This document shows, in pieces, positions 601-50,600 of a DNA stretch of 64,000 bases. The stretch is from Geosiphon pyriformis uo1 (Eukaryota > Fungi > Glomeromycota). Every line of letters starts with the position of its first letter. The stretch's first letter is position 1. The notes below the pieces were generated by a model. It saw only the letters and a list, made by a program, of their open reading frames with translations. It was not told the origin of the DNA and made no database searches. The translations under genes were made by a program, and so were the position numbers. The stretch spans positions 26,921 to 90,920 of the forward strand of contig JAAOMT010000678.1 of the NCBI GenBank assembly GCA_016748015.1, given 5' to 3'.

Positions 601-785
601 ATTAATAATAATAATAATAAAAATTAAATCAAAAGTTATTTAAATATTATTTTAATTATTAAACAAATTATTATAATTAATAATAATAAAATACATACTA
701 TTATTAAGTCAAAAAAATTATTAATAGAAAAAAATTAATAATAAAATAGATAAATATATACTTAAATATATAATAACAATTATAT

Positions 786-7135: not shown

Positions 7136-7790
7136 ATGAACAATTATTTTCTGGATCAAAACATTCAAAACACTTTCTATATTCTTTATGAGTATTGGAT
7201 CAAAAACTATCCAAATGCTACTTTGACTATTGGAAAACAAACCATCATAACTGATAACAGTAGAATACATACTATTATTAGAAAAGAAAACCACTACCAG
7301 AAGAGAAAGAATTGGTAGTAAAATGGATAAATATTTGTTAGAAAGTATAACAGCAGCTATACTCTCATCTTCCAACACAATTGGAAAAACACTACAAAAA
7401 ATCTTACCCATAGACAAAAACTTGTTATATGAAAGGCAATTAGAACTCTATAGTCATCTTGGTGAAATCATAGAGGATATAAAACTCATAAAAAAAACAA
7501 CTTCAGAGATACAGGCAGAAATTTTGGGCATTATATAGTTAGATGTCCTAAGAGTTTTAACTATTGCTAAAAGAGCTAAAACTCTAATACAAAAATTTGG
7601 TCTCTTGGATACAAAACTCATTTCGTCTCAAGTATTATATATTTTATCCACAAAAAACTTCAACAAACTAGTTAGTTTTGAGTTAGATAAAACCCTTCCA
7701 ATAGATTACACCATAAATAGCTTGATTTCACTGAAGCTCAATTTCTTTGGAGAAAATAATATTATAATTGAAACTTATACTTTTTATTAA
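7136..7790 (+). pseudogene. Accessory ORF3 of element A (frameshift and stop)
   Basis: Fragments 7040-7318, 7323-7538 and 7605-7790 align with the intact ORF at 22717-23373. Confidence 0.8.
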
Positions 7791-8500: not shown

Positions 8501-8644
8501 ATATTATTGTTTTTCAATATAATTAAAAAAATAATTAAAAAATTTATATAAAAAAAAATAAGCTTTAAATTAACTTAATAAAATTATAAAAAACATAAAA
8601 CTCTTAAAAAAACAACTATAAAAATACAAATAAAAATTTTGAAT

Positions 8645-9257
8645 ATTATATAATTAAATATTTTTAAAGTTTTAATTATTATTAATATTATATGTATTAA
8701 TTATTTATTATTATATAATTAACCATTTTATTTTCAGATAATAATTGTTAATTTGATTAATAATTTGATTATTAATCTAATTATCAACTTAATTATTAAT
8801 TTAATTGTTAATCTAATTATTAATAGTTACATATAAAAAAACATAAAATCTAAAAATTAAATACAATAAAAATATATCCAATATTTTTTCTTATTTTATT
8901 TATTTCTCTTTTTTAATTTTTTATCTTTAAGTATTTAAATATTTGTAAATAAAAAACTAATTGGTATTTCTTAATTTAATTTAAAAAATATTTGTTTGCT
9001 TTTGTAATTTTTTGAATAAAAAAACAATTAAAAAGCACAATACCTATTATTGATTTTTAAAATCACCAAGTAAAACATAAAATAATCGCAATAATGTTAT
9101 TTTATTAACAATCATGAACTATTTTTCTATTTTCAAATTTTCCAAAAAAAATTAAGTGATTCTAAAATTGATTACACACATTGAATCTTTACAAATTCAA
9201 TTCGTTTCTTTGATTGAATTTCCTTTTTTATTATTTCCATTACTCAAACCCGTAACA
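8645..9257 (+). repeat. Heavily AT-eroded solo LTR related to the A/B family
   Basis: Ends tactcaaacccgtaaca like the A/B LTRs; retains eroded 12-bp units and a TATA-like motif; left boundary approximate. Confidence 0.65.
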
Positions 9258-16064: not shown

Positions 16065-16353
16065 TTATTCTCTTTTTTTAATATTAAGCTCTATTAAAAT
16101 TTTCTATATTTTCTAACTCTTTATCTTTAATTAACTTTTAAATTTTTTTTTTAAGAATTACTTAGATTATTTTGATCTGTAATTTTTCAAATTGGGTATT
16201 GGTTATTTTACTCAATTAATTGACAGTAATTGTATTTATTATTGAATTAAGTAGTATTGCTGATCAATCTTGAAATCCTACATATAGCCAATATATGACT
16301 TGGACTTGTGTGAGCAGATTGCTCTTTCTCACAAATTGTTCAAGTTATTATAG
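16065..16353 (-). pseudogene. C-terminal half of accessory ORF3 of F (continues at 23943-24040)
   Basis: Manual translation LEQFVRKSNLLTQVQVIYWLYVGF..AILLNSIINTITVN*LSKITNTQFEKL, homologous to ORF3 of D. Confidence 0.7.
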
Positions 16354-17060
16354 TATTATGGTTGAAACCCATAATTTTTATTAGTTATCACATGTATTAG
16401 TCACTGATGTCATATAATTAGCCACTCTATTTTTAGATAGTAATTATTGACCTGATCATTAACCTAGTTATTAATTTGGTCATTGACCACTTTCAATAGC
16501 TATATAAGCAATGAGTCTCTTAGCTGTAGAAAATCATCTCTCAGATAAGAATCAAATAAATAAAAATAACAACTTTCATCTCAATTACTCTCTTATCACT
16601 AATTTTTTTTTCCCTACCTTTAAGTATCTGAACATCTTAGGATAAAAGATTACTTGTTGGCTTTTTCCTGATGTATATAATTGTAGTATTTAAAGATTAT
16701 TTGTATAAACGTGACTGAAGAGCACAAGTTGATACCTGATATTGAATTCTAAGAGCACTAATGTGAGGCATAGAATTATACCAGTGGTGATCAATTATTG
16801 ACAGTATAAACTATTCCTTTACCTTCAGATTTCCTTATTATCTTTTGAAAAGAATAGTGACTAAGATATTTTATGAGACTAATCTCACACATTGAATCCA
16901 TACTTATTCAATTTGCTCATTAAAGTTGAATCTCTTTTGATTATTTCTATTACCCTACAATCCTGTTCTCCTTTGCTACCCATTAGCTTGTTACTCCAAC
17001 CCATAACATAAAAGTGGTGCTTTCTGTAAGATTGTCAAAATCCATTTGTTTCTTTATTGT

Positions 17061-18616
17061 ATGGGTAATTATTCATACCTACCACAACAATTAGCAGAAC
17101 ACTTTGAAGCACACAACAAAAATGATCTAGATTTTATTGAACTCAATCCTTTGCCATCCTGCTTGATTTGCTTCCCCCTTGAAGAACAATCCAGTAGACA
17201 ATTCCAAGACTTTTGAAACTGGTTCTTAAATAAGCATTTAGCTGAAATCTATACAGCCTACACAATCTATTACTTTGATCAAGCTTACTTTGAAAACAAC
17301 TTTGAAGAAAGAAACAACAATATCAATCAGCTCTTATACTCAGCAACCTTTGAACAACAACCTTCTGAATTCGAATATCTAAATCACCAAATTCACATCT
17401 GGATTGCTGTCCATCAATCAGCTAAAACCTCTTTTGAAACAGAAGAAAAAGTTACCAAACTGCTCCTATTTTTGATTTCTTCTCAAGTGATTTAGATCAT
17501 TTCACTCAAATAGTAACTTCTGAACTAATAGCTCAAGACCCAATACAAGCAAACATCCTAGCCACCCTCCAAGGCATACAAACTGCTTTGGGGTGAAGAA
17601 ACAACACCCCATTATCATTATTCAGAGATGATGCACAAGATCCAATTAAATGGTTGGACAATTTTGAAAGAGCAGCCACTGCCAACCAATATAATGATGA
17701 GTACAAGTTTCAAATCATTGGTGGCTACCTTCAAGGCTCACCTGCCACATGGTTTTCACAAGAAACCAATGCCAATGTCCAGCACAGAATTATCAGATAA
17801 ACACCAGCAGATGCAGGAGAAAACAATATCTCTTTTACTACTCGGTTTGAAAACAAGTTCAGAATTCCAATCTTAATATCTAAATGGCACATGAAACTAG
17901 AAAGAAGAACCCAAGGTCCTGGTGAAGTTGTAACTGAATATGCCAAAGCAATCAGAAAGTTAATCAAGCGAGTAGACTTTGGAAGGAACTGGACAGAAGA
18001 ACAAAAGATTCATTCCTTTACAAAAGGATTGAGAACTGACTTATCTTATGCTCTTTGGCCTCTTTTGGCTCTGAAAGACAACCTTACAATGTATATGGCT
18101 ATTGAACTTGCCCAAAGGATTGAAGATAACCAAAGGATGCATTTGGAATCCACACTTTCAGTTTTTGCTCCTGCTTCTGTCATGGCCCCTGCTCCTCAAG
18201 TGGCTGCTATTTCTTTTGCTGCCCAAACCCAAGACCCAAATGAACAATTGATAGATAAAGGTACAACTAACCTTGCCTGGTTATTAGAACTGTTGGCACA
18301 AGCAGTCAGAGATAACCAGCAACCACCAAGACCTAAATATGAACCTTGTTTTAACCAGCTCCAGCAACCTCTTTATTAAAGACAGCAAAATCGTGGCCCA
18401 CCTGTGTGCTATTGTTGTGGATTAACTGGACATTATTTAAGAGATTGTAACAACCCTCCACTGCCTCTTCCAGCTCTCAGAAACAATAACAACCAAAACA
18501 ACAGACCCAATAACAACAACAATATCCCCAATCAAATACCCAATCATGCCAACATCAATTTCTTTGGAGAAAATCCCCTAGTTGAAGCCATTGTTTATTA
18601 GTCTTTAAACTGGTAG
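17061..18616 (+). pseudogene. gag: gag of element B
   Basis: QGPGEVVTEYAKAIRKLIKRV capsid motif; CYCCGLTGHYLRDC zinc knuckle. Confidence 0.9.
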
Positions 18617-21600
18617 GTGCGCCTACAAAGGGTGAGAGTACAAGCCAACCAGAAAAAAACCCCTTTTATGCTTTTAACTTAACTGATGATGACCATGACA
18701 TGGATGAACTAGCAATTAACACCTTAGAACCAACCAGAAAGAAGAAGAAAGCCAAGGTTGATTTCGTTTTAGATTCCAACAAAGTCTTAACTTCTGCCGC
18801 TGATAACAATGAACCACTAAAGGCTAAAGTTTTTAAGAATTCTCCAAAGTTAGAACCCCCAGAAATTGTACAAAAATCTGGACCCTATTCCATTGTCAAA
18901 GATTTTATAGAAACCCCAGCACATATTACCTTTGGCCAGTTAATAACCCACCCACAGTTCAGAAAAGATCTTCACAAATCCTTGATTCCAAAGAAGAAGA
19001 CACCAAAAACCAACAAGTGCTCTCGCCAAGCTGGACTTGCTGACAACAGCAATGTTACCCCTCTGATTTGTAAAGCCCAAGTGGCTGAATACTTTATTGA
19101 CTTAATTCTGGACAGTAGATCATCTGTTAGTGTTATTGCTAAACACTTCTTGGAAGCAATTGGTAGAAAGATTAATGAACCTTCCATCAAACCAATAACC
19201 AATATACATGATGACAAAAAAAAAGGACTGGGTATTGCCAAAGCTGTTCTTGTCCGCATTAATGGAATCAGCATTGAAACTGACATGAAAGTTTCTGAAG
19301 CCAAGAAATACACCATCATTGTTGGCAATGAATGATTCAAGAAAGCAAAAGCTTTGCTTGATTATGAACTTTGTGAATTAACCATCAGATGTGGTGAGAA
19401 ACCCATTGTGGTTAAGTGTTGCCATTGGACAACTCCCTCAATACCCAAACAAAACCAAAAAGAAGAACAATCAGATGAATCAGATGATGAAGAGAGTGAT
19501 GAAGAAGAAGAACAAGAAGAGCAAAAAGAAACTACTGAACTTATCTATACCATCTTTATCAGCAATAGCAAACCATTGGACAATATTAAAGCAGACAAAG
19601 AAGGAATCATTGTAAATGGCAAGCTGATCTGCTGGCCTTATTATGATATTCTTAGAAGAACCTTTGAAAGAAAACCTGGCAAGAAAGCCAAATACAGTTT
19701 TTGGTAACATGGTCCTTGTGCTTAGTGTTGGTGCAATAAATTCTTGTATTCTCCAAGCAATAAATGCAAATCATGCCTAATCTATTACAGAGATTAGGAA
19801 CCAATCAGTTTGATACCCAGAGAAGAATTGAAAGAAGTACAGAAGTCCTTTGAAATGAACCACCTGAGATCCAATTACTGGTTGTAGAACAAAAAAAACC
19901 CTTCCCAGAAGAAAAAAAAATAGACATTGAAAATTTGCTGGCTAGAAATAGCCCAGTTATCTCCAAAGAAGATGATACTCCTGGACATACCCATGTGATA
20001 CAACACACTATCACCACCAGAGAAACTCGACCCATCCATTTGAAGTCTTATCAATCCAATCGGCACAATGATGAGTTTATCAAGAAAGAGATAAACCAGA
20101 TGAAAGAACTTGGATTCATACAAAAAACCAAGAGTGAATGGGCTTTCCCAGTTGTAATGGTATCCAAAAAAGGTAGAACACTATGCTTCTGTGTTGACTA
20201 CCACCAATTAAATACTATCACTGAAAGAGACATGTACCCACTTCTCAAGATTGATGCAATGTTAGACCAATTCAAAAATGCTGCTTTCTTTTCAACCATT
20301 AACTTAACTGCTGGATTCTGGCAAGTAGAGATGGATCCAGAAAGCAGAAAGAAAACTGCCTTCATTACCAAGTATGGCACTTATGAATTCACAGTTATGT
20401 CTTTTGGTCTCACCAATGCTCCTCCCACCTTTTAATACTTAATGGATAAAGTATTTAAATCAGTCAAGGAAAACTTTGTTCTAGTCTATTTGGACAATAT
20501 AATGGTATACTCAAAAACCTGGGATGAACACCTAAAACATTTGCAAAAGGTTTTTGACCTCCTCAGAAATGCTGGCCTCAAGATCAACCCAATCAAATCT
20601 TTCTTTGGAAGACAATCCACCCAGTTCCTTGGTCATCTTATCACAAAAAATGGAATCTTTTCTAACCCAGCCAAAGTTAAAAAAGTCCAAAACATCAAAC
20701 AACCAATGAATATTCATAAACTACGCTCTTTTCTTGGTTTGGCCTCTTATTATCACAAATTTGTCAAGGATTTCTCCAAAATTGTCTCTCCTCTCAATCA
20801 GCTACTCAGAAAAAATGTTAATTACTATTGAAGAACACATCAGCAAAAAGCCTTTGAAACTTTAAAGAAAAAACTGGTTACAGAACCCATCCTCAAGCAA
20901 TCTAATCTAGATTGATTTTTTATCCTTCATACTGATGCATCTGGCTTTGGACTTGGTGCTGTTCTCTCCCAAAAAGATGAAAATGGCAAAGAACATGCCA
21001 TAACCTATGTCAGTAGAACCCTTTTCCCAGCAAAACAGAACTATTTAGTTACTGAACAAGAATGCTTAGCAGTAGTATGGTCCACCAGTTACTGGAGTAA
21101 GTATCTTCTTGGTGTGAAGTTTTTGGTGATAACAGATCACCAAGCTTTGGTTTGGCTGCACAACAAAAAGAGGCTAGAACACAAATGGATAACTCACTGA
21201 ATACTCCACTTAGATGAATTTGACTATGATATTCAATATTGCAAAGGAGCTAATCATTAAAACACTGATGCTCTCTCTAGACTTACCATCCAGTGACAGA
21301 ACAACCCTCTCAAACCAAACCAACTTAATTATTAGTAATTCCTCCTTTTTGACAAACACAATAATGGACTTGGACAACTACTCTGCCTTAATAGAATTTT
21401 TGGTAAAGGAAAATACCCATTAAAATACACATGACAACAAAGAGAACATTTGCGCAAACAATCAAATTTCTATTTGATTCGCCAGAACCAACTTTATAAA
21501 AGAAATAGAAAAGATTCTAACCACTTCCAAAAAGTCATCAGATTTGAAGAAAGAGAAATTGTGATCTACAATATGTACACTGATCCATTAGTTGGACACT

Positions 21601-22675
21601 TTGGAAAAACAAAAACAATTCAGAAAACTCTAGCTTGCTATTATTGGCCTACCTTGGGAAAAGACATTGCTGAATACATCAAAACTTGTGATATCTGCCA
21701 AAGAAAAGGAAAACCCAATTGCAAAAAAGATATCCATCCAATCTCTGTTGGTCAATCCTTTAACAGAATTGGTATAGATGTTGTTGGACCTTTAACAATA
21801 ACTCCTGATGGCAACAGATACATTATCACAACTATTGACTATCTTACAAAGTGGGTAGAAGCAAGAGTCACTCCAGACCAAACAGCAGTCTCAATAGCCA
21901 ATTTCATTTATGAAGATATTATTTGTCGCTATGGCTGCCCCAAAGAACTTTTATCTGACAGAGGAAGAGCTTTTCTCAGTACACTTGTTGAAGAACTTTG
22001 CAGAAAAATGGGAATACATTACAAACTTTTCTCTCCTTATCACTTCCAAACAAATAACCTAGCAGAACATTTCAATAGAACACTATGTGAAACCCTAGCC
22101 AAAACCAGTGAAGAAACAAACTTATGGGACAAAGTACTGCCTTTAGCTTTGTTCACTTATAGAACTGTGAATCATGACATAACAAGTTATGAACTCTTTA
22201 TTTACTCTATGAACAAATGGCAACCCTACTAATAGAAACTGACATTGAGACAATACCCTTTGAAGAAATAACAATAGGAAATTACAAAGACATTTTGCAA
22301 AGAAGACTTGGTATTATTCTTGACTCATTAGTAGAAGCACAGATAATTGTCTTTGAAAAGATAAAACAATTCCAAAAAAAGCTTAAGAAAAAGAAAACAT
22401 ATAAAACATTTTCCTTAAATGTTGGTAACTTAGTTTTAGAATACTATTTAGACAGAGACAATGTCTATGGTGATAAATTCTCTAGCCAGTGGAAAGGACC
22501 CTTTATAGTCAACAAAGTTTTGAACAATGGTTCTTATATCTTACAAGATCAATATGAAACAATCTTCAATGATTGTCCTGTTCATGGCACATCACTCAAG
22601 AAATATCACAAACAACCTAATTGGTTACCTGTTGTGGTAATACCAACTCAAATGATCAACAAAAATCAGATATAA
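18604..22675 (+). pseudogene. pol: pol of element B
   Basis: LILDSRSS, FGLTNAPPTF, YLDN (mutated YLDD), GHFGKTKT..YYWP..CDICQ, IGIDVVGPL, LLSDRG, WKGPF. Confidence 0.92.
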
Positions 22676-22716
22676 ATAAATGCACTATTCCCAAAACAGA
22701 GGTATCTTCAATTGAC

Positions 22717-23373
22717 ATGAACAATTATTTCCTAGATCAAAACATTCAAAACACTTTCTACACTCTCCATGAGTACTGGATCAAAAATTATCCAAATGCT
22801 ACTCTAACCATTGAAAAACAAACCACTATAACTGATAACAGTGGAACACATACTGTTATTAGACCAAAGAAAACCACTACCAGAAGAGAAAAAATTGGTA
22901 GCAAAATGGATAAGTATTTGCTGGAAAACATAACAGCAGCAATACTTACACCTTTCATGACAATTGGAAAAACGATTAAGAAAATCTTGCCCATAGACAA
23001 AAACTTGTCATATAGAAGGCAACTAGAACTCTATGGTCATCTTGGTGAAATCATAGAAGAAATGAAGCTCATGAAGAAAACAACTTCAGAGATACAAGTG
23101 GAAATTTTGGGCATTATACATTTAGATGTCCCAAGAGTTTTGATTATTGCAAGAAAAGCCAAAACTCTTATACAAAAATTTGATCTCTTGGATACAAAGC
23201 TTATTTCACCTCAAGTATTATACATTCTATCTACAAAAGACTTCAACAAACTAGTTAGTTTTGAGTTAGACAAAACTCTTCAATTAGAATACCCTATAAA
23301 TAGCTTGATTTTGCCGAAGCTCAATCTCTTTGGAGAGAATAATGTTATGATTGAAACTCATAATTTTTATTAG
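22717..23373 (+). CDS. Accessory ORF3 of element B (218 aa from first ATG, uninterrupted, runs through the PPT into the LTR)
   Basis: Open frame; homologs at the same position in A, D, E and F. Confidence 0.75.
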   Translation: MNNYFLDQNIQNTFYTLHEYWIKNYPNATLTIEKQTTITDNSGTHTVIRPKKTTTRREKIGSKMDKYLLENITAAILTPFMTIGKTIKKILPIDKNLSYRRQLELYGHLGEIIEEMKLMKKTTSEIQVEILGIIHLDVPRVLIIARKAKTLIQKFDLLDTKLISPQVLYILSTKDFNKLVSFELDKTLQLEYPINSLILPKLNLFGENNVMIETHNFY

Positions 23374-26300
23374 TTATCACATGTATTAGTCACTGACCTG
23401 ATTAATGACTTGGTCATTGACCACTTTCAATAGCTATATAAGTGATAAGTCTCTTAGCTATAGAAAATTATCTCTCAAACAAAAATTAAATAAATAAAAA
23501 TAACAATTTTCATCTTAATCACTCTCTTATCGCTAATTTCCCTTTTCCTACCTTCAAGTATCTGAACATCTTAGGATAAAAGATTACTTGTTGGTCTTTT
23601 TCTAACATATATAATTGTAGCATTTGAAGATTATTTGTATAAACATGACTGAAGAGCACAAGTTAATACCTGATATTGAATTCTAAGAGTGCCAACATGA
23701 GGCATAGAATTATACCAGTGGTGATCAATTGTTGACAGTATGAACTATCCCTCTACTTTCAAATTTCTTTGTTACTTTTTGAAAAGAATAGCGACTAAAA
23801 TATTTTATAAGACTGATCTTGCATATTGAATCCATACTTATTCAATTCACTTATTGAAATTGAATCTTTTTTGATTATTTCCATCACCCTACAATCCTGT
23901 TTTTTCTTGCTATCCATTAGCTTGTTACTCCAACCCATAATAGTAATATTGTTGTATTGAATAACTATTTTGTTTTGTCAGTATACAAGTTCTAAATATT
24001 CAGGTTTTGTCCCAAATAATAATAACAAAAGTTTTTTGGAAATTATTGTATCTACCAATTCCAAGTTTTTTTCATTAATTCTTGGTATAGTACAGCTATT
24101 TTTGGTATTTTTATTACCAATTTTACTTTTGCTATTATCTTATTTATGGTGTTTTTTGGTTTTCTGTGTGCCTTATATTGGATTTTTTTTATTTTCTTTG
24201 TACTAAATAGTTTGTTGGTTGATTGTAATTTTCATGTTTTGTTGTTGAATTAGTTAAAATAATTATTGTATAAGTGAGTGGATATTATCAGTAATTTCTA
24301 TTTTTTGTTTATTGCTTTTGTTATATATACTGTGTCTTTATATATTATTCCAGTTGATTAATTTAATGTGTTTGTATTAATAATTATGATTAGTTTTAGA
24401 TCTCATAAAATTGCATTTGGTTGGACTAGTATTTGTTGTACTCCCAATTATAGAATATTACTGGTAAATAATAATGCTGTATTGTAGTATGGTTTCAGTT
24501 AATTTCTATGTGCTGTTTTAGCTAAGATTTTGTTGTTTTATCTTAGCTTATAAGCTTTATTTCTTAGAATTTTTTTAATATAAAATGGCCTATCCTATTT
24601 GGAATCAAATTTTCTACTCTATTGTTTTTTTGCTTTAGTATAATATAAAAGTATTTTGTCTTTAATTTTGAATTTAACTGGTTTATTTGATAACTAGTTA
24701 TTATGTCATTTTTTTTGTTTTTTTTGTAACTTTTGAATGTTATTAGCTGTTCTTTGTTTTTTGTTTTTTAAAGTCTTTATTAAGTCATATGTTTTTCTTA
24801 ACAATATTTCTCAAAAGTTGCCTTTTGTTATTGGTTTAGTTGAATATGTATTGACTTTTATTTCAATTGATAATGTTGCTGTTTTATCATAAATAAGTTT
24901 AAATAGTGTTGTTTGTATAGTATTTTGCTTTATTGTCTGATAAGCAAATAGTACTGATGGACATTCATCTTGGTTTTTTTGACTGATTTTGAAGATTGCT
25001 TTACATAATATTCTGTTGAATCTTTCAATTAAACTGTTTATTTGTAGATAATATAATGATAATAATAGTCTTTTAATTCCAAATCTTTGGCTTAATTCTG
25101 TTAATGTTCTGTTTACAAAGTGAGTTCTTTGATCTGATAACAATTTTTTTAGACATTTGTGTCAGCAAATCAAATCTTGATGGACAAATTTGGTTACAGA
25201 TTTTGTATTTGCTTTTTAAATTGCTTTTGTTTCTGGTTATTTTGTGAGATAATCCATAACTATTGTTATATAATAATAGTTTAATTAAGTTAATTCTGAT
25301 TTAATCAAATAGTTGTCTCATTTTAATTGGTCTTAATGGTTCACTGGGTTTTGTTTCTCCTTTTTTTTGACAAGTATCACAATTTTAAATGTATTAGATA
25401 ATGTTTGAATATATTGATAACCAATAATATTTTTTTTTGGTTCTTTCCATAGTTGCTTTTTTATAAAAATATTCTGTTGTTGGATCTAAGTGCATGTTAT
25501 ATAATATTGTTTCTTTTTCTGGTTCTGTAATTACTCTGAGTGATTGATTTGAATCTTTTCTGTTTTTCTGATATAATATATTTTGGTAAATAATAAAATA
25601 TTTTGATTGTTGTTTTATGCTGTTTTGTTCTTTTTGAAATAATTTTTCCTTAAACTATTGGGTATTAATATAGTGTTGAAATTGTTGATATTTTTGTGTG
25701 TTCATCTTTTGTTATATTTTTGGATTTTTAAAATGTTCTTAGATTTGTTTTATTTATGATAAACCATTAATATTTCTATTTTTTTTTTTTTTTTTATAAT
25801 GTACTGTATATTTGAATGATAAAAGTTTTATTTTCTATCTTGTATGATGGTTATTTCCAAATTTTTGCTTCTGAATTGATATTAATTCTTTGTGATTAGT
25901 GTATACTTCAAACTTTTGGCTTAAATATTCTTTCTATTTAATAACTGTCCAATAGATAATTAAGTGTTTTAGTGCTGGTGTTTCATAATTTTTTTCCATT
26001 AAACTCAAACTTTGGCTGGCATATATTACTGGATGTTTTCATTTATTTAGTTTTTTCTAAGATAGTACAGCTCCCAATGCTTAACCAGACACATTGGTAG
26101 TAATAATGAATGACTTGTTGTAGTCTGAATAGATCAGTATTGGTGCTTGGATAAGCTTTCTTCTTTGTATATTAAAAGTTTCTTATTGAGTTTCTGTTCA
26201 TTTATATTTCATATTTTTGGTTTGAAGCTAGTGAAATGGTTAAGCCAGTTTGAAGAAATTCTGGATAAAGCAGTAGTAATATCCAGTAAATCTCAAGAAT

Positions 26301-27569
26301 ACTTGTAATTCTATCAAATTTGTTGATACTAAAAAGTTTTTTACTATTTCTATCTTATCTGAATCTGTTTTGATGTCATCATTGCTTATAACATGTTTCA
26401 AAAATTTCAGCTTTGTTTTGCCAAAGAAGCATTTGGTGGCATTAAATTTTAGTCCTGCTCATCTCAATTTTTTGAACACTTGCTGTAAATGATAAAAATA
26501 ATCATCAAATATTTTTGAGAACACATTGATGTCATCTAAATACATGACTACTGATTTCTATAGTAGTCCAGTATAAACAATTTCTATTAGCCATTAGAAA
26601 ATGACTAAAGCATTAGTTAAACCAAATAATATTACTTCAAACTCAAAGTTTTTTTCTTTGATAGTGAATATGGTCTTTTTCTTATCAGCTGAATTTATGA
26701 CTACTTGTCAATAACCACTATTTAAATTTAGTATTAAAAACCATTTTTTTTCTTTAAAAGCATTAAATAATTTCTGAATTCATAGAGTTAGATAGCTGTT
26801 TTTAAGAGTAACATTGTTGAGTTTTCTGTAATCCACACAAAAGCAAATTTTTCTATTCTTTTTGTGGATTAGTACTACTGGTAATGACCATAAACTTATT
26901 GATAATTAAATTAACTCATTGTCTAATATTTGGTTAATTTTTTATCAGATAATTTTATGATTTGTTTGTAGTACTCAGTATGTTTTTTGTTTAATTAACA
27001 TTGTATCTTTAGTCTTGATCTGGTGCTAAATAATATCAATTCTGCCAAATTTATTTTCACTTGTGAAAATATCAGTAAAATTGTTAAGTAACATTTTAAG
27101 TTACATCTGTTATAGTGAATCTAAGTTTTCCAAGTTTATTTTTTCCAATTGTTTGGATTGAAACAAATAGTATTTTTCTTATTCATATATTGCTTGTGAT
27201 GTGATATTCACATATCCACATAGTTGTGGAAAATTTGGAATGGTGTTTGGTATTTGATCTTTAACTTTAGTACTTAAATATCTAATAATAGTTCTTTTTG
27301 GTATTTTAATGGGATCTTTAGTTGTATTATAAATAAAAATTTTAATGTGCTTGTTATTTTTAGCTAATATATAGAGATTGGTAATAGCAATTTTTTTTAA
27401 TTTACAAATAGTGGCTTCTGCTTTGAAAATTTGGAGTTGATTTCTCATTTTTTTTTCTATAACTATTAAATACTAGTTATAAGGTAAAATAGAAATTGAT
27501 TGAATAGTGGAAATAATTTTTTCTTTGTTAATTAATTTTTTTTCTATTATATTAACTGGTATGTCTATT

Positions 27570-27990
27570 TTACTTATAGATCTGAATTCATTTTTCCTTT
27601 TGGCTGTAATTCCTAATTTTTTTTTGTTTCTATTAACACTAACTGAGCTATTTTTACCAAAGATAAGAATATTGTCTGCACTATTTTTTCATTCAGTTCA
27701 ATAATATATTCTTTTTTCGAGTTATTTTGTAATATTACAATGATATTTCCTATATATTCTGTATCAATTATTCCTCTCTTAATGTTGATTTTCTTCTTTG
27801 CTAAACTAAATCTAGATGTTAATTGAATCATTGTTGTTGTTGAAATTTCCAATACTAATTTTAAATCTATACAGGTGTGTAAATATAATTTTAATTTGAT
27901 AACATCTTTTCCTGAATATCTCAGATCAAACTCTGCATTAGTATCATATGCATGTTTTGACATAATACTTTTGTTATTATTGCTAACCCA
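27570..27990 (-). pseudogene. dUTPase domain of element F
   Basis: Degenerate motifs NAEFDLRY, SRFSLAKK, GIIDTEYIGNI, EKIVQTIF. Confidence 0.88.
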
Positions 27991-29557
27991 TTTGAGTTCT
28001 TGCTTCTTGGAAAAATTAGGGAGCATAATGTATTGTTTGGAATTACAATTGGAGTCTGAATCATTATTGTTATTATTGTTATTTTGAATAGAATTGGAAC
28101 TATTGTTATTGTCATTATTGTTGGAGTTTCAATTATGATTGAGTGGTAATTTCAATTCTATTTCACAGCTGTTGATTGGTTTTTTCTCTTCTGAAATTGT
28201 GTAAGTCATGTTTGGTAGTTGATTGTAAATAATGTCATAATTATTACAATATTAGAAATCACATGAAATTAAACAGTAGTTACATAGATAGATATTGAAA
28301 TATTTTAAATATTGCTTTTGTTCTTCTTTAGTAAATGTTAATTTTTGATAGTATTTGTAGAATTGTTCTGAATTTATGATGTTAAAAATAATATTGATGT
28401 TTAAGATCCAAATAATTTCTTGGGATTCTAATAAATTGTTTTTGATTATTTTAATTTCTTTTGAAGTTGTGCTTTTAATTTTGGCAATTGCCATTTTTTA
28501 TATTTTGTTGTTGTTATATAGACAGCTGTTCAAACATTTTACAGCTTTTTTTTAAGCAGTATCTATTGGCATTTCTTTTTTTACCCAATTGCTTATGAGA
28601 ATCATGTACTGACATAATTCATCACATGTTTTTTCACAATTAGGAATGTCATTTTACATTTCTTTGTTTAGGAGAGTTTTTCTACAAACAAGACATGGTT
28701 TATTGTCCTATTTTTTTTGTTTTTTTGGTCATTCAAAGTGTTCAAGAATGTATAGATAACAGTAGTATTTTGTGGCCATTGGCTATTCTTCATTATTGCC
28801 ACAACATATGTCCATTGTTGATAATTTTTTACCACAATCAATGCAAATTAATTTGGATTGATAATAGTTTGGCTGGTATTAAGTAATAGTAATATATGAT
28901 ATATATATAAAAGTAGTTGCTTGGAGAGTTTTTTTTTTTTTTTTTTTTACCCTTTTCTTTTTATGTAGATATTGGTAATAATTTATTGTGTTCTTTTTCA
29001 GCCCATAAAACTTAATATATTTTCCAAATAGGTTTTTTTTTTCCTTAAACTCAATTAGTGGCTGTTTGTTGGTGGTAGTTTTGAAATAATCACAAGTGGT
29101 TGGCACTCAAATATTTTGGCCATTTTGGCTTAATTGTAATTTTTGAGTGTTCTAATCAAACACCACATTGGTTTTGAACAACCAGTTATTATCAATGAAA
29201 GCTTGGTACTGTGTGGTTTCTATTACCAATACTTTGATGGGCACAATGATGCTATTGACTTTAAATGAGAAGTTATCAATTTTGCCAATTGAAGTTTTTG
29301 TGGCTCTGTTAGTAGTAATAATTCTGACATTAGTAGCATGATTAATTCAGTAACTTAATTGGTCCATGAGTTGTCATGTGATAATACTGCCAGCTAATCC
29401 ACTATTTAGGATCAGTTTGATAAACTGACTATCAATTTTGATATCAGTATACATTACAGTAATGAGTTTTGATTTAAGGGTGACTTCATTAAATAAAAGT
29501 GTTTTAACTGGTTTCTTTAATTTAAAAGGAAAAATGGCAGTAAGTGATTCATTTTCA

Positions 29558-30251
29558 CTTTGGCTGTATATTTGTTTTAAGTTGATAAGATCAATTTTTT
29601 GATTGTGAAGACTGTAAATAAATCTTTTTTTGTTGTCTTGGTTGGAGATTTCAATAAAAATGGTTTACACAGATTTTCTAATTTTAAGAAGTGCCTCAAT
29701 TTGGGTCTGGTCAATTCTTTGTCAAAAAGTTTGGTTATGAATAATTCTACATAAAAAAATTCAAGAGATACTAAAAAAACAATTGATTACATATTTGTTT
29801 TTTTAAATTTGGCCAATACAGTAGTACATCAAAATATTTTGGACATCAGTAAACATTTTAACACTAATTACTATGCTGTTTCTGTGTCTGTGAGTTTGGG
29901 TGGATTGTTGGATATGCAGTTAAACTCTTTTTATAAACAAACAAATAGGGATTATTGGAAGTTTAATGTTGAAAGTGCTGATAAAACTAAGTAGTGCAAG
30001 TTCAAAGAGTCTATAACAAATAATGCTATAATGTTTTCTGATGAGTTTGTTATGTTTAAAGACTTTTCAAATTTGGATGTTATGTAAAATGTTATCCATA
30101 AGGTAATATGTCTTTTAGCAGATAAGATTTTTAAAAAAAAGTGGTTCAAAAGATATGATGATGTTTTTACCAAGGAACCCTTTAAGTTTCATAAACTGGA
30201 AATTTTAGTGTCAAAGATTGTTAAGTTTTTACATAAAGGTGTTGGTGGTAT
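29558..30251 (+). mobile_element. 5'-truncated LINE, left part (APE endonuclease C-terminus)
   Basis: Homologous to the reverse complement of ~62500-63120; TIDYIFV and TNY (TDH-like) motifs. Confidence 0.8.
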
Positions 30252-31226
30252 TATTATGGGTAAACTAAGTAGGGTATGATAGTAATGTTTGGTGCTCTAT
30301 GTTTTTGTCTTTCAAGATTGTTTGCTCTTTCCACAATGTCAGTGTTATCAGTCTTTGAAGGTCTATTCATGGATGTAAATTTACTTGTTGAGTTCTTCAG
30401 TTATAAGGCACAGAGTTTGTCTTTTGTCAATTGCAACATTTTCTGTAAATGTGAGCTTTTTTCTTTATGCTAACAAGTGCAGTTATTAGGATTCAGCATT
30501 GTCTTTTTGTTCTTCTGGTAAGCTACCAAAATAACATTAATATCCAAAACTTAGGGGGAGCTTTCCTCTTTTACTAGACTATTATGATGTCTATTTCAAG
30601 ACAGTTGATTTTTCTATGTTGCTGCTCCAAACAAAAAAAAAATAAAAAAAAATAAAAAAAGAAAAAAAAAAGAAAAAAAAAGAATTAGTTCCTGTCAATT
30701 GCCATGATCAAAAGCAATTGGTCCAAATTGTTAAGGATTTGAGATGTTTATGCTAATAACATCTGTCCTGAAACAAAGATAAAAAATACTGATTTTAATT
30801 TTAATTAAAATCCATAAGATTAGAGAACATGAATTGGTAGATTGGATTTTGTTTTGATAATTATTGTATTTTGGACTATAAATATATGATAAGTATAATA
30901 CAAAGTAAAATTAATTACTAACTACTTGACTAACTAACTGACTTTTTAACTTCTACAACTATTTGCTTTTATATATTCTTTTGGTTTTACAGGATTGTTT
31001 TCAATTGCTTTACTATTGTTAATTATTGTTTGTTATTGCTAGCTATTGTTTGTTATTGTTAGCTATTGCTTATTATTGCTAGCTATTGTTTATTATTGTT
31101 AGCTATTGCTCGTATTTGTCCTGTATTACTTCGAGTTGTACCATGTTTTTTTTGTCACCTTTCTTTGTCACATTTTTCTATAGTTTTTTGGTTTTTCTAC
31201 TCGGTTAACATTATTTTTCTCTTTTT

Positions 31227-31590
31227 AAAATTGAGCTTCTGTAAAATTATCTATTTTAGCCAAGTTTGTGTTTTCCATAAAGAACTTGAATGTTGCTTTC
31301 AGTATTGCTTTTTATAGAACTTCAAATTGTGTGTTTATTATCTGTTCTATGTTGTTGACTGTAATAGTTTTTAAAGTTTTGTTTAATAGTACTATTGAAT
31401 AGTGTTTAAATGCTGAATATAGTTGGTATGTTGCTTTGTAGTATAAGTTTAAGTTGTTTCTTCTCACGAATTTTTCTACTTGTCTGCAGGCTTCTTTGTT
31501 AATTGTTTAATGGTTGAGGTTTTCATATAAGCTATTTAATTCTAATTGTACCCCAATTTTAAATAGCCAATAAATAAGTAGAAGTTTCTT
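31227..31590 (-). pseudogene. Accessory ORF3 core of element D
   Basis: Manual translation YWLFKIGVQLE...QVEKFVRRNNLNLYYKATYQLYSAFKHYSIVLLNKTLKTITVNNIEQIINTQFEVL. Confidence 0.7.
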
Positions 31591-34153
31591 TTTCTATTTT
31601 TTTGCATTTTTAGGTGTCTATTCTCCTGTTACTGGCTTCAGTGTTTGTCTGTTCAGACCCTTTCTTATTTCCTCAATCCTCACCTGACACAGTTCTATTT
31701 CTGTCACTTTCACCTTTACCTTATCTGTGTCAAGTTCTATTCATGCCATTTCCCTTTTTCTTTTTCTTTCATAAGAAGAGATTTGCTTGTAGGGGTGAGA
31801 CACCTTAGTTCTAGTTGAACTTTTGTTCACCCCTTTTTTGCTCTTATCTCTGTATTATATCTCTTTTTTATTAATTGTGATTTCTATTTGGGCAAAAGAT
31901 TGTTGAATTGCATTAAACAGTTGTTTCATAAGTTATAGAATTAGATCTAAAAGATTTATGTTGAAAAGATTCTATCATTTTCTCATTGTTTTTTGGATGG
32001 TATATATACTTTAATTTCTCAATTTAATTTGCTATGTGTTGCCTATGTTTCAATGACAATAATTGGTTCCAGATTTTGTGGTATATCTTCTGGTCTGATT
32101 AATGAAATTTGTGTTCTTAGTTAAGATACTAATAATAATGACTGTTGTTTTGCATGATAAATTTTTAATCAATTCCCATGAGCTACTTTCTTTAAAACCC
32201 TGTTTTTCAATCATAATTTGTAAGCTCCATTTCCTAAAGCTTTGTGTATGTGGAATGGGCCATCTCATTTTGAGTCAAACTTTCCACTCCATTGTTTCTC
32301 TGCTTTTATACAATGTAATAATACTTGGTCTCCAATCTTAAATTCTATTGGTTGTTCAAGTAGACAATTATCATGTCTTTCTTTTTGTTGTTCTTAAGCA
32401 TTACTAATTTTGTTAACTGCTGTTTTATGATTGTTTTCTAATGTTTCCATTAGCTGGTATGTTTTTTGGCATAAAGTAGCTTCAAAATTTTTTTTGTTGA
32501 TAGTTTTTGTTAAGTAGAATGCTATTTCTCATTCAATAGATAGCATTGCTTTTCTTCCATAGACTAATTTAAATGGTGTAAACTGTGTCATATTTTGCTT
32601 TAATGTTTAATATGCAAAGAGTACAGAAAATATGAATAAGTTCCATTCTTGTTCATTTTCATAATTTATTTTTGCTAATGCTTCACATAATGTCCTATTA
32701 AACTGTTCTATCAGTCTATTTGTTTGTGGGTAATATGGTGATGATAGAGGTTGTTTTATACCAAATTGTTGACTCAATTCAGTTAACGTAGTATTGACAA
32801 AATGTGTTTCTTGGTCTGATAACAATTTTTTCGGGCATCCATGTCTGCATATTAGATCTTGGTATATGAATTTGGCTACTGTTTTGGCATTAGCTACTTG
32901 GATTGCTCTGGCTTCTGGCTATTTTGTAAGGTAGTCTATGGCTACTACAATGTAATGATTTTCTTTAGATGTAATCAAAAAAAGACCAACCAAATCAATC
33001 TTAATTCTATCAAATGGATTTTCAACTAGAATAGATTGAAGTGGTTCTGTTATTCTAGCTTCTTTTCTTTGCTGGTATGAGTCACAATTGAGAACATACT
33101 TGAAGATATTCTTATATATTGTAAGCCAATAGTATAGATTTGTTGTTCTTTCCAGAATCACGTCTTTGTTGAAGTGTTTTGCAGTTGAATCAGAATACAT
33201 ACTATATAATATAGCTTCTTTTTTACTGTTCTTGATCAATTATTATGGAGTGATGTGGTTTCGTTATTCTCAATGATAGAGTTGATTATTTTGAATAAAG
33301 TAATTTTGCACTTGTTTCCATATGGTATTTTGTTTTTGTTGAAATAAAATCTTCTTAAAACATAGTGTCAATAGATACTGATATAGTTGCTAATAAGTAA
33401 GTATGTCCATGGGTCCAAGATTAGGTTTGTGGTATTCTTAACAAATTGTTGATATTGGTATTCTTAAATCCTTCCTTGTAATGAACTTTGAGTAAGAATT
33501 GTTGCAGATAAGTACTTCATCTTGCATATTTTCCTTCCAGCTATGAGTTATTGAATAGCTAGATTAATCCTTTATGATCAGTATATAGATTGAATAGTTG
33601 ACTTAGGTAATGTTTCTAGGTTTGTACTGCCCAATAAATGGCAAGACATTCCAAGTCTGTTGTACTATATATCTTTTTTGCTAGACTTGTGCTATGGCTA
33701 GCATATGTAATTGTATGTTCCCTTTTGTCTGGTTTGATCTGAGATAAGACGGCTCCTAGTGCATTTTTTGAGGCATTCATAGCAACAATAAAATGTTTGG
33801 TAAAATCTGAGTAGATCAATACTGGAGAGGTGATTAACCACTGTTTGAAATAGTTGAATGCTTTCTGTTGTTCCTCTTTCCATTGGTATGGTATGTGCTT
33901 AGATAACAAATGATAGAATGGTTTTGTAATGGTTGAGAAATCTTTGACAAATTGTCAGTAATATTCTGCTAATCTTAGGAATCTACATAATTCTCAAAGA
34001 TTGATGGGAGCTGGGAAATCTTTGACTTTTTGAATCTTGTCTAGATTGGGTTTGACTCCATCTTTGCCAATTACATGTTCTAGGAATTTCAGCTTGGTTT
34101 TTCCAAAAAAACATTTGTTAGAGTTAAGTTTTAGTTCAGCATTTTAAAGACGT

Positions 34154-36129: not shown

Positions 36130-36560
36130 GTTCCTTTTTTTACTTGAGCCAAATCTGTTAATTTCTCAGACAGTAAAACCTAATTCTTTTTGGATGGTAA
36201 CCAAGGCTAGTTAGAGTATTTTGATTAAAGATAGGAAGATGACTTGGGCAATCTTTTTGTGAAATTCGATTTTGTAGGGTTTGTCTGAATTGTTCTGTAG
36301 CATTATGATAATGTTTCCCATATATCTGGCATCAATAATTTCTTCTTTTACATTGATTCCTTTCTTTGCAAGACTTGATCTAGATGTTACTTGTACTATG
36401 GTGCTAACTGAGATTTCTAATGTTATTTTGAGATCTATACTTACTAGAAAATATGGTACTATTACTATGGATGATTGTCTGGGGTATTGTAAGTCAAAGC
36501 CAGCATTTATGTCATGGTTTTTTTTAGGGCAGATTTTTTTGTTGTCATTGCTATATCATT
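36130..36560 (-). pseudogene. dUTPase domain of element D
   Basis: HDINAGFDLQYP, SRSSLAKK, IIDARYMGNI, KIAQVIF. Confidence 0.88.
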
Positions 36561-47135: not shown

Positions 47136-47621
47136 CTAAATAATATCTCTAATTTCGTCTGGTAACATAACTTCCTCCTCAAAACTAAGCTTCGTCGAAG
47201 TCCAAGTACTGTCTGTAATTTCCAGACAATAATCCAAAATTATTGAAGAAATTTGGTCTGAAAATTGTTGAAATTTCAGTTCTGTGAACTTTTCAATGTA
47301 TTGAATCTTTAAAAGTTGTAAAATTGGGTTTTGTAGGACGTTTTCACAGGTGTAAAATAGATCATAAAGTCTAAGAGCAGCTTTTAGTTTATAGTGACTG
47401 TTTGTAAATCCAGCTGTTGTTTTGAATTCGTTGTAAAGTTGTTTCTGAATAGCTTCTTTTGTGAGGTTTGCTGCTGTAAGCTCCCGTTTTTGTTCGTGAA
47501 GTGTTTTTTCAATGTAGAAATATCTATATATTGGAGTATAGTTGTGGTTTTCTTTATTAAGACACAGTTGAAGTTTTTGTTGAATAGTAGCATTTGGTGG
47601 AATACTAATAGGAATGAACAT
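47136..47621 (-). CDS. Accessory ORF3 of element E (161 aa open frame)
   Basis: YRYFYIEK...LKAALRLYDLF...IQYIEKFTELKFQQF; same position and pattern as the other ORF3 copies. Confidence 0.72.
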   Translation of the reverse strand: MFIPISIPPNATIQQKLQLCLNKENHNYTPIYRYFYIEKTLHEQKRELTAANLTKEAIQKQLYNEFKTTAGFTNSHYKLKAALRLYDLFYTCENVLQNPILQLLKIQYIEKFTELKFQQFSDQISSIILDYCLEITDSTWTSTKLSFEEEVMLPDEIRDII

Positions 47622-50600
47622 TAAATTTTTTCTTAAAGCAAGCTTTAAAAGTTCTTGTAGATAAATTCCAGAATAACTTCTTGTGTTCTTTTTGTAGGGG
47701 TGATAATTTCATGAATTTGGGGCTAAATTGGTAACTATTTCTGTTTGGGTATAATTAATATGTTTTTCTGTAATAGTAATAGATAATTCGGGTATTGTTT
47801 TTAAAGCTAGCATTAATTTTTGAGATATTTGTTGAATATTTTGAGGGATAGTTATTATAAAAATTTGAGTGAGAAAAAAAATAGATTGAAATTATTTTTG
47901 TCTTTCAGTGTGTTTTGTTTTGTTTTTGTGAAATTATTTTTAATTTATAAGGGATAACTATAATAAATTTAAATTAAGTGTTCAAGTTGGGAGGTTGTTT
48001 AATAACAACTATTGGTTTCAAATTTTGGAGAATGTCTTCAGGATTAATTAAAAGAGAATGTGTACCAATTTGTGGAATTAATAGTTCAGGATATGTTCTG
48101 GAGTGATAATGTTTCAATCGATTTCCATGTGCAACTTTTGCTAATATTTTCCTATCAAGTTTTAACTTGTATGATCCATTTTCTAAGATTTTGTGAACAA
48201 AGAATGGTCCATTCCATTTATGTTCAAATTTTCTATTCCACTGTTTTTCAGCTTTAGTTCTATGTAAGAGAACTTTATTTTCAACTTTAAATTTGTTGGT
48301 AACTAGTGGCAGCTTGTTGTTATGCCTCTCTTTTTGTTGAGTTTGTGAGTATTCTATGTGGGTTGCTGCTATTCGTCATTTTCCTTCTAGTGTGTTAAGA
48401 AGTGTATAAGCTCTTCTTTATAATGTCTCTTGGAAGTTGTTTTCAGTAATTGGTTGGACTGGATATGTTTTCACTGTGAAGCTAATGAGTAACATTGCTG
48501 TTCTTCCATAAGTGAGTTCAAATGGTATGTGTTTTGTTGTATCTTGTTTTAGTGTTCTATATGCTAGAAACACTGATGGAATAAAAATATCTCATTTCTG
48601 CTCAAAATCTGTTGAGACTTTGGCTAGCAATTCACACAATGTTCTGTTGAAACATTCCACTAATCTATTTGTTTGTGGATGGTAGGACAAAGATAAAGAT
48701 CTTTTGACATTAAATCATTCACAAATTTTTTGTATCAGGTTGTTCACAAAATGTGTTTCCTGATCGGATAAAAGTTCAATTGAGCATCTATGTCTACAAA
48801 TAATGTCTTCGTAAATAAAATTTACTACTGATTTTGCATCTGCTCGTTGAATAGCTCTGGCTTCGGACCATTTAGTAAGATAATCTATTGTTACTGCTAT
48901 GTATCAGTTTTCTTGCATGGTGATAGGTAGTAATTCAACTAAATTGATACCAACTTGGTCAAAAGGTTGTTCAACTTTGATTGGATTTAAAAGTTCAATA
49001 GGGCGTGTTTCTCCTCTTTTTTGACAACTATCACAAGATTCAACATATTAATGTATGTTTCTTCTTATTTGGAGCCAAAAATAGTATTCTAGTGTTTTTT
49101 GGGTGGTGCTGTTTTTTTTGAAGTGTGCTGATAAAGGATCTGAGTGCATGTTGTATAATATAGTCTCTTTTTCATGTTCTTGTATTAATCTGAATGGTTT
49201 GTCTGGGTTTTTGAAATTTCAATGATAAATAATGTTGTTGTGTAAGAAATATTGTCTGGCTTGTTGTTGTAATTGATGGTTTTTATCTGAAGACCAATCT
49301 GTTGAGATTGTTAATATCTTCAAATATTGTTTGAGGTTGTTGTAGTCTTTTGAATTTATTGTTTGTTGGTTGTTAGGTTTGAGTGTTGATTTGTGTTTTC
49401 TAATTTTGTCTCATTCTGGTAAGACAGTTAACATTAGTGTGGAGTTTTCCTGGTTTGTGATGTACTATGTATTGGTAGTTTGCTAGAAATCCTGTCCATT
49501 GAGTTTGTTTTGCGTTCAGCTGAATATTTTTGTTCTGAAACCATTTGAGTCTAATATTATCAGTGATAATATCAAATTCTTTTGGCCAGAGATAAAGGTT
49601 GAAATGATGTAGGACCCAAATTACAGTTGCTGTTTCTAATTCAGTGGCAGGATAATTTTTTTTGGCTGGTTTTAATGTTCTACTGACATAAGCAATTACT
49701 CACTCATTTCCATTGTCATTTAATTGTGACAAGATGGCACCGAAGACAGTATATGAAGCATCTGTTGCTAATCAAAATTGGCTACTGAAGTCTGGGTAGA
49801 CGAGAATTGGAGCTGTTGTCAGCTTTTTCTTGAGAATTTCAAAAGCTTTTTGGTGTTCAGTAGTCCATTTGTATTTGACATTTTTGGTGGTGAGTTGGTT
49901 AAAAGGTTTTGCAATTTCTGAAAATTCTTTGATAAACTTCCGATAGTAGGATGCTAATCCGATGAATCTTCTTAGTTCTGTGGTGTTTTGGGGAGTTTTG
50001 AAATTTTTAATGGTGCTAATTTTTCAAGGGTCCAGTTTGATTTCGTCTTTGCTAATGATATGACCAAGAAAGGCCAAACTCATTTTTCCAAAGTAGCATT
50101 TTTTGATGTTCAGTTTCAATCCTGCTTTCTGTAATCATTGAAAAACTTCTCATAGGTGTTTTAAGTATAATTCAAAAGATGGTAAATAAACATTAGTATC
50201 GTCAAGATAGACAACTACTGATTTCCAAAGGAGACTTTTGTAAACAACATCCATGAGTCTTTGGAATGTTGCTGGTGTGTTGCATAGTCCAAAGAGCATT
50301 ACATTGAACTCATAATTTCTTTCTTGGGTGGTGAATGCTATTTTGGGATGATCTTTGGGATCCATAGCAACTTGCCAGTAACCACTTTCTAAATCTAGTG
50401 TTGAAAAGTATTTGGATTTTCCAAGGGCATCTAACATGTCATCGATTCAGAGAAGAAGGTAGGCATCTCCAATTGTGACATTGTTCAGTTGTCAATAATT
50501 AATACAAAATCGGATTTTTCCATTTTTTTTTTTAACAAGTACTACTGGTGAAGCCCATGGGTTCATTGATAGTTGGATGAGCCCATTGTTGAGCATTCTT

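What the first reader, a model, noticed from the sequence alone, without database searches (positions are those of the whole stretch)
22717..23373. Conserved third ORF in the 'env position' across four divergent Gypsy families
Seen: A, B, D, E and F each carry a sense ORF between integrase and the 3' LTR, although A/B, D, E and F have unrelated LTRs. By eye the ORFs share a helical pattern. First block Y-x-[HYK]-[LI]-G: LYGHLGE (B), YYYLGQ (F), LFKIGV (D), YFYIEK (E). Then about 35 aa later A-x-R/Q-L-Y-x-x-F, then I-[TS]-x-x-x-[LI]-x-x-[LI]-x-x-x-x-F-x-x-L. The frame is open in B and E (47136-47621) while their pol genes carry stops. It has no obvious signal peptide or TM segment, so it is not a classical env. 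Inference: a lineage-specific accessory protein maintained by these elements (anti-silencing, targeting or transactivation). This is my best candidate for an undescribed system.
Basis: partly seen in the sequence, partly recalled or inferred. Interest (0 to 1): 0.82.

Follow-up and report, generated by a model that had tools for sequence, protein, structure and literature searches.

The report
Third gene in fungal Gypsy retrotransposons
Several jumping-gene families in what is likely a mycorrhizal-type fungus carry, after their integrase, a real extra gene for a small soluble protein of no described family that selection has kept, and it likely helps the element by binding its own nucleic acid rather than by acting as a viral envelope.

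Summary
The third ORF is real. A, B, D, E and F each carry one between integrase and the PPT/3' LTR (F's LTR was not found, and B splits F's ORF). A sixth decayed copy is split by A. D, E and F ORF3s are clearly homologous to each other and to metagenome proteins, one of which sits after integrase on its contig. The A/B link is only borderline (profile z about 3-4.8, hhalign not significant). A-vs-B shows purifying selection (transition pN/pS 0.38, P=5e-5). 'Open while pol is dead' does not hold: E has lost its ATG and has a stop, and B's open frame is within chance (P 0.11-0.27). A confident model (pLDDT 79.5) shows a soluble helical protein with no PDB or viral match; it is not env-like. A weak likeness to bacterial YhcG/DUF1016_N suggests a nucleic-acid-binding regulator, but this is untested. 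Extra ORFs of unknown function are a known kind; I found no paper on this family. The scan noted the same thing before in two other genomes.

The parts
22717..23373 (+). ORF3 of element B, 218 aa, open; last ~10 codons lie in the 3' LTR
   Evidence: 128 homologous gene models, the 120 listed all named Geosiphon pyriformis
16354..23942 (+). Element B: 5' LTR 16354-17008, gag, RT-RH, integrase (rve, H2C2), ORF3, 3' LTR 23343-23942; LTRs 88% identical
21435..22675 (+). Integrase core and C-terminal part of B, directly upstream of ORF3
   Evidence: Pfam rve/Integrase_H2C2; tblastn with L003 integrase
7136..7790 (+). ORF3 of element A (786-8500): 2-nt deletion near 7283 and one in-frame stop near 7536
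47136..47855 (-). ORF3 of element E (46188-55972): start codon lost, one stop at codon ~49, 3' 190 codons open
   Evidence: 193 homologs
31219..31947 (-). ORF3 of element D (about 30250-41148), decayed, 6 stops in 233 codons
   Evidence: 132 bits to the D/E/F profile
23943..24301 (-). 5' half of ORF3 of element F (YYYLGQ block), heavily decayed, cut by the insertion of B
16150..16353 (-). 3' half of ORF3 of element F, on the other side of B
   Evidence: 45.7 bits, E 1.6e-13
628..778 (+). 5' remnant of ORF3 of an older A/B-family element into which A inserted
   Evidence: 69% over 159 nt, E 2e-18
8574..9243 (+). 3' remnant of that older ORF3 (8574-8680) followed by its decayed 3' LTR (8741-9243)
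   Evidence: E 2e-13 and 7e-32

Best explanation
These Ty3/Gypsy elements carry a third gene after integrase for a soluble 218-244 aa protein predicted to be mostly helical, which purifying selection kept while the elements were multiplying and which likely works as an element-encoded regulator that binds the element's own nucleic acid (probably LTR DNA) to keep it expressed despite host silencing. Shown: position, family-wide presence, homology among D/E/F and metagenome relatives, purifying selection between subfamilies A and B, and no TM segment. Predicted: an N-terminal helix plus beta-hairpin, then a helical core with a conserved Y-x-[YF]-[YF]-x-I-G helix, a helix, a G-x-x-N turn and an R-L-Y-x-x-F helix. 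Inferred: A/B is a fast-diverged member of the same family (about 65%); the core is a helix-turn-helix-like unit distantly akin to YhcG/DUF1016_N (about 40%); it is made from its own subgenomic or spliced RNA. The copies in this window are fossils that decay like their pol genes.
For: The E-family profile against 1.84e9 proteins gave 34 hits, among them the F family (E 1.6e-6), the D family (2e-4) and two metagenome proteins (7e-16, 6e-12). D, E, F and the metagenome group score 24-109 bits against each other, 0 of 300 shuffles reaching this. L003 shows RT-RH, integrase, an intact 230-aa ORF3 and the PPT in another organism's DNA. A vs B over 206 codons: differences by codon position 18/19/43, transition pN/pS 0.38, Fisher P=5e-5, pattern reversed in the shifted frames. 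ORF3 similarity groups (D,F) and (E,L003), as the RT-RH tree does (bootstrap 99 and 58). AF2 pLDDT 79.5, core about 90. The independent, low-confidence B model has the same order of helices and strands. DUF1016_N lead, stated before testing: hhalign P=0.0035 over 93 columns, nearly without gaps; 1 of the 2 hits of the ORF3 profile in 741 bacterial genomes lies inside a DUF1016_N domain. Strong transition and CpG loss (LTR ts:tv 64:4, 70:1, 112:5, 65:3; CpG o/e 0.14) points to a methylating host. Precedent: VANC anti-silencing proteins (PMC6719617, passages).
Against: No binding, expression or RNA data: no RNA run was listed. pI ranges 4.8-9.7 and only about two basic positions are conserved, which is weak for a DNA binder. 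No HTH protein appears among the structure matches; best Z 5.5 is noise level. The DUF1016_N likeness vanishes under block shuffling (z<1), is absent for B and D, and the other blind hit (YajC) scored as high. B vs D/E/F: hhalign 0.2-0.3%, HMM at most 6.2 bits (4 of 300 shuffles reach it; window B 34 of 300), and B vs D z about -1. B's RT-RH is as close to E (49%) as D's is (43%), yet its ORF3 is far more distant. Transversion pN/pS 0.42 is not significant (P=0.12) and is looser than gag/pol (0.05-0.19).
Confidence: 0.35

Rival explanations
1. ORF3 is a protein-binding cofactor of the virus-like particle or of the separately encoded integrase (assembly chaperone or targeting adaptor), standing in for the chromodomain that chromoviruses carry at this place.
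For: Co-inherited with pol. These elements have no chromodomain hit, whereas chromovirus L007 has one directly before the same PPT motif. L003 has a stop between RNase H and integrase. The conserved positions are mostly hydrophobic or aromatic and the net charge varies.
Against: No interaction evidence; the complex prediction could not be run. A separate ORF with a 41-320 nt spacer suggests separate expression rather than stoichiometric fusion.
Confidence: 0.22
2. ORF3 is an RNA-level factor: it binds element RNA for export or packaging (Rev-like), or suppresses RNA silencing.
For: Small, soluble, 3'-placed and faster-evolving than gag/pol, as viral accessory proteins often are (recalled, not tested).
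Against: No Arg-rich stretch is conserved across families, and no match to a known viral protein in BFVD.
Confidence: 0.18
3. Two unrelated genes occupy the same slot: the A/B ORF was acquired independently of the D/E/F ORF, and the shared pattern is convergence of amphipathic helices plus the PPT-coded tail. (This concerns homology and is compatible with any function above.)
For: hhalign not significant; B not found by the E profile in 1.84e9 proteins or by the D/E/F profile; B vs D z<0.
Against: With the PPT tail removed, B vs E z 3.1-3.9, B vs E+metagenome z 3.0-4.8 and B vs the L018/L019 type z 3.1-4.6 (11 pairs x 2 modes tested). Same length, same motif order and same predicted helix/strand order.
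Confidence: 0.33
4. ORF3 is an env-like membrane protein or a remnant of one.
For: Position only.
Against: No TM-strength segment in 9 of 9 proteins, 0-3 Cys; soluble helical model; no viral fusogen match.
Confidence: 0.03
5. The frames are chance ORFs in AT-rich 3' non-coding DNA.
For: B's open frame alone is within chance.
Against: Third-position bias and pN/pS 0.38; motifs conserved at 22-37% identity across six subfamilies; full-length open frames in unrelated metagenome records; confident fold.
Confidence: 0.02

Closest known systems
Sense additional ORFs between pol and the 3' LTR (aORF-3S) of LTR retrotransposons (Vicient and Casacuberta 2020, PMC7264820, first third read; 'add. ORF' of some fungal Gypsy elements in Novikova et al. 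2010, PMC2864245, passages and figure legend only)
   Same: Same slot and orientation, present family-wide, function unknown.
   Different: Plant sense aORFs are described as env-like with TM segments; this one has none. Whether Novikova's 'add. ORF' is related could not be checked (figure and .DOC supplements not seen).
Non-envelope ORF3s of bdelloid rotifer LTR retrotransposons (PMC5408684, passages)
   Same: ORF3 after pol in Gypsy-like lineages, some with dUTPase, as E and F have here; similar 210-230 aa size in one case.
   Different: Those are GDSL esterases, DEDDy exonucleases, TM or coiled-coil proteins; none of these families matched here.
Errantivirus env (F-type, gB-type; PMC13524379, passages)
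   Same: Third ORF of Ty3/Gypsy elements.
   Different: No TM segment, no large ectodomain, no fusogen fold.
YhcG N-terminal domain, DUF1016_N (PF17761); described as a mainly alpha-helical domain without a known structure (PMC1189080, passages)
   Same: Y-W-x-I-G helix, helix, G turn and R-x-F-Y-x-x-F helix align nearly without gaps to the D/E/F core (P=0.0035).
   Different: No Pfam hit, no nuclease domain, similarity not robust to block shuffling and not seen for B. That DUF1016_N contains an HTH is recalled, not read in a call.
VANC21/VANC6 anti-silencing proteins of VANDAL DNA transposons (PMC6719617, passages)
   Same: Possible functional analogue: an accessory gene kept by one transposon lineage in a methylating host.
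   Different: Different element class and kingdom; no sequence match seen; activity not tested here.

Membership tests
Ty3/Gypsy LTR retrotransposon | LTR pair, gag, then RT-RNase H-integrase order, PPT before the 3' LTR | tested here: met
   B; the same order in A, D, E, F and L003
Chromovirus | chromodomain at the integrase C-terminus | tested here: not met
   No chromodomain hit in the integrase C-terminal ORFs of B or E, only a weak SH3-like hit in E; the chromodomain-bearing L007 is the outgroup in the RT-RH tree
env / env-like ORF | position between pol and the 3' LTR, sense strand | tested here: met
env / env-like ORF | transmembrane segment | tested here: not met
   max KD19 0.44-1.62 in 9 of 9 proteins, the highest being an internal amphipathic helix of B
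env / env-like ORF | signal peptide | tested here: inconclusive
   No dedicated predictor; hydropathy only
env / env-like ORF | fusogen ectodomain fold | tested here: inconclusive
   No such match listed in PDB or BFVD; the model is a small helical domain
Sense additional ORF (aORF-3S) of unknown function | present in most copies of the family and conserved by selection | tested here: met
   22 of 120 listed B-family models are full-length ~218 aa; 34 of 120, 5 of 119 and 15 of 47 models are fused behind integrase sequence; 103 of 119 E-family models end in the PPT peptide; contig cover continues across ORF3; pN/pS 0.38
Sense additional ORF (aORF-3S) of unknown function | own subgenomic or spliced transcript | not testable with these tools
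   No RNA holder listed
DUF1016_N / YhcG N-terminal domain | score above the Pfam gathering threshold | tested here: not met
   No PF17761 hit for 12 ORF3 proteins
DUF1016_N / YhcG N-terminal domain | remote profile-profile similarity | tested here: inconclusive
   hhalign probability 9%, P=0.0035; column z 4.6-5.1 but block z<1
VANC-like anti-silencing factor | family-specific demethylation of its own element | not testable with these tools
   needs an experiment
One ORF3 family including A/B | significant profile similarity of A/B to D/E/F | tested here: inconclusive
   negative or borderline; z 3-4.8 against E-type, about -1 against D

The most novel reading that the evidence does not exclude
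A whole clade of fungal non-chromovirus Gypsy elements carries an ancient accessory gene derived from the bacterial mobile-element domain YhcG/DUF1016_N. Its product binds the element's own LTR and shields it from host methylation: a retrotransposon counterpart of VANC that would help explain the LTR expansion reported for Geosiphon (41% of the genome, PMC11952901, passages).
Probability: 0.12. Interest if true: 0.85.

Novelty: new variant of a known kind. Interest (0 to 1): 0.5.

Why it matters
Accessory genes of fungal LTR retrotransposons are almost uncharacterised. This one is conserved over deep splits, folds confidently and has no clear structural relative, so it is a tractable target. 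An intact 230-aa version (P0265, L003) could be expressed and assayed. If it is an anti-silencing or transactivating factor, it gives a mechanism for the LTR expansions in these symbiotic fungi. On the practical side, several hundred 'hypothetical protein' gene models in the Geosiphon annotation are pieces of this transposon gene, not host genes.

Tried and rejected
No whole genome was held for the window, so the test that all genomic hits lie between IN and an LTR, and a family-wide dN/dS, could not be done; gene-model fusions are a partial stand-in. Pfam and PHROGs (best E 0.0012, unknown function) gave nothing usable. PDB sequence search: best E 0.19. Foldseek PDB and BFVD: no match at E<=0.001. 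VIA-align over 48,161 chains: best Z 5.5, rmsd 3.4, 55 aligned, and the N-terminal 50 residues barely tested; this does not show a new fold. YhcG-N has no solved relative either. ESM Atlas: only unnamed clusters at 0.89-0.92 with low recognition; DUF6192 appeared at 0.88 for both B and E, but no DUF6192 seed could be obtained and no paper names it, so that lead is untested. The AF2 model of B had pLDDT 39.9 and was not used for fold search. Related-locus scans found nothing with P0263 in metagenomes, P0318 in viral contigs, P0265 in phages or the PPT pattern in viral contigs. Of 30 metagenome loci from the PPT pattern, 3 carry an ORF3-type frame ending at the motif (L003, L018, L019; only L003 is long enough to show integrase), 3 are other LTR-element pieces (L004, L007, L027), and the other 24 showed no retroelement match. 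No RNA holder was listed; this is no evidence on expression. A homodimer prediction was not run because the queue was full. No ORF3 was detected behind integrase fragment C (13585-16070). Rejected: selection on the present copies, and the C-terminal ELSLEEE/FAGAQ peptide as evidence of protein homology.

Full report
Setting. The window is an AT-rich stack of nested retroelements. All 120 listed homologs of the B ORF and 119 of the 120 listed homologs of the E ORF are named Geosiphon pyriformis gene models; the remaining one is the window's own protein. The host is therefore likely this Glomeromycota fungus. LTR pairs define A (786-8500, +), B (16354-23942, +), D (about 30250-41148, -) and E (46188-55972, -). 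F (pol at 24481-26509, -) has no recognisable LTR pair, and C is an integrase-region fragment. LTR pairs are 88-93% identical and differ almost only by transitions; CpG o/e is 0.14. All copies are old and decaying.

The observation. B 22717-23373 is an open 218-codon frame 41 nt behind the integrase C-terminal ORF and ends inside the 3' LTR. A has the same gene with a frameshift and a stop. E has lost its start codon and has one stop. At the stop rate of their own pol genes B expects 1.3-2.2 stops (P(0)=0.11-0.27), E 3.7 (P(<=1)=0.11) and D 6.7 with 6 seen. The present copies are therefore not shown to be under selection.

Is it a gene? Yes. Between subfamilies A and B, 206 codons differ 18/19/43 by position; transition pN/pS is 0.38 (P=5e-5), and the shifted frames give 1.76 and 1.32. 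Transversion pN/pS (0.42, P=0.12) is looser than in gag and pol (0.05-0.19). The gene is family-wide: 22 of 120 listed B-family models are full length, and 54 of 286 models across the families are fused behind integrase sequence. Contigs of one DNA run cover ORF3 and integrase alike (possibly the source sample, so not independent).

Is it one family? For D, E and F, yes. The E profile searched against 1.84 billion proteins returned 34 hits, including F-type (1.6e-6), D-type (2e-4) and two metagenome proteins (7e-16, 6e-12). Mutual HMM scores are 24-109 bits against 0 of 300 shuffles. A PPT-motif scan recovered the contig of one metagenome protein: L003 reads RT-RH, stop, integrase (one internal stop), 320-nt spacer, intact 230-aa ORF3, PPT. 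It also gave two further ORFs of a third type ending at the PPT (L018, L019; too short to show integrase). For A/B the answer is open. hhalign gives 0.2-0.6% and HMM scores reach at most 6.2 bits. A custom profile alignment without the PPT tail gives z 3.0-4.8 against E-type and L018/L019-type but about -1 against D, compared with z 9-20 within D/E/F. Length, motif order and predicted secondary-structure order agree. I put homology at about 65%. B's RT-RH is not more distant from E than D's is, so B's ORF3 evolved faster, was swapped in from another lineage, or is unrelated.

What is the protein? AlphaFold2 on P0265 with a 33-row alignment gave pLDDT 79.5 (core about 90): helix, beta-hairpin, then seven helices. 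There is no TM segment, few cysteines and a pI from 4.8 to 9.7. Conserved positions are mostly hydrophobic, plus P-Y(46-47), Y-x-[YF]-[YF]-x-I(102-107), K131, G142, N145 and R-L-Y-x-x-F(155-160). Pfam, PHROGs, PDB sequence, Foldseek PDB/BFVD and VIA-align found no significant relative. One lead, recalled from memory and written down before testing, was YhcG/DUF1016_N. A profile from 30 such domains aligns to the D/E/F core over 93 columns with P=0.0035. One of two hits of the ORF3 profile in 741 bacterial genomes falls in that domain; the other is YajC at the same score. The signal does not survive block shuffling and is absent for B and D. I put real kinship at about 40%.

How it likely works. 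A separate, soluble gene that is inherited with pol and evolves faster than gag and pol, in a host that mutates cytosines heavily, fits best an element-encoded regulator acting on the element's own nucleic acid (0.35). A particle or integrase cofactor (0.22) and an RNA-level factor (0.18) are the main rivals; env-like function (0.03) and chance (0.02) are unlikely. None of these functional steps was tested.

What is known. Nine literature searches found no description of this protein family. The library lacks most subscription papers, the Geosiphon genome papers did not come up, and Repbase/GyDB entries could not be checked. Extra ORFs in this slot are a known kind: PMC7264820 (first third read), PMC5408684 (passages), PMC2864245 (passages and legend; figure and supplements not seen, and they may bear on novelty). 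PMC3248453 (passages) and PMC11952901 (passages) showed no third ORF in the passages seen. PMC13524379, PMC1189080, PMC9881135 and PMC6719617 were read as passages for env, YhcG and VANC features. Earlier notes of this scan report the same feature in two other genomes; they are not independent proof.

Verdict. A real, selected, apparently undescribed accessory gene family of a fungal Ty3/Gypsy clade; a new variant of a known kind; unity with A/B and function unproven. Interest 0.5.

Noticed in passing
window 628-778, 8574-9243 and 16150-16353, 23943-24301: Both A and B are inserted inside the ORF3 of an older element (A in an A/B-type, B in F). The 4-bp flanks are ATAT/ATAT for A and ATAG/GTAA for B, compatible with decayed CpG-centred target sites.
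   Followed up: partly
window LTR pairs 786/7760, 16354/23343, 31210/41148, 47161/55972: Almost pure transition decay (ts:tv 64:4, 70:1, 112:5, 65:3) and CpG o/e 0.14, suggesting methylation-driven or RIP-like mutation.
   Followed up: partly
L003 2940-2942 (-); window about 21290-21370: A stop separates RNase H from integrase in L003, and B has a stop followed by a new ATG at the same junction: integrase seems to be a stand-alone ORF.
   Followed up: no
window 51003-51797 (-), 27613-28128 (-): dUTPase domains in E and F (Pfam E 2e-20, 4e-12).
   Followed up: no
window 23317-23347, 31206-31240, 47157-47190; L003, L004, L007, L018, L019, L027: A conserved DNA motif (TCGCAGGAGCTCA, then purines, then TGTTA) precedes the 3' LTR in very different fungal Gypsy elements, with or without ORF3; possibly an extended plus-strand priming signal.
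   Followed up: partly
window 59297-59895: Tandem array of a 57-bp AT-rich unit, about 10 copies.
   Followed up: no
window 41846-42948 and 60667-61768: Two related, oppositely oriented fragments (65% over 1.1 kb) that by eye look like non-LTR retrotransposon RT regions.
   Followed up: no
L004: PPT-LTR followed by gag on the same strand, i.e. a tandem or circular-type arrangement of a related element.
   Followed up: no
window 9453-9571, 10178-11142, 12540-12703: N gaps; the long 'ORFs' listed at 9444-12314 are artefacts of these gaps or of low-complexity DNA.
   Followed up: partly
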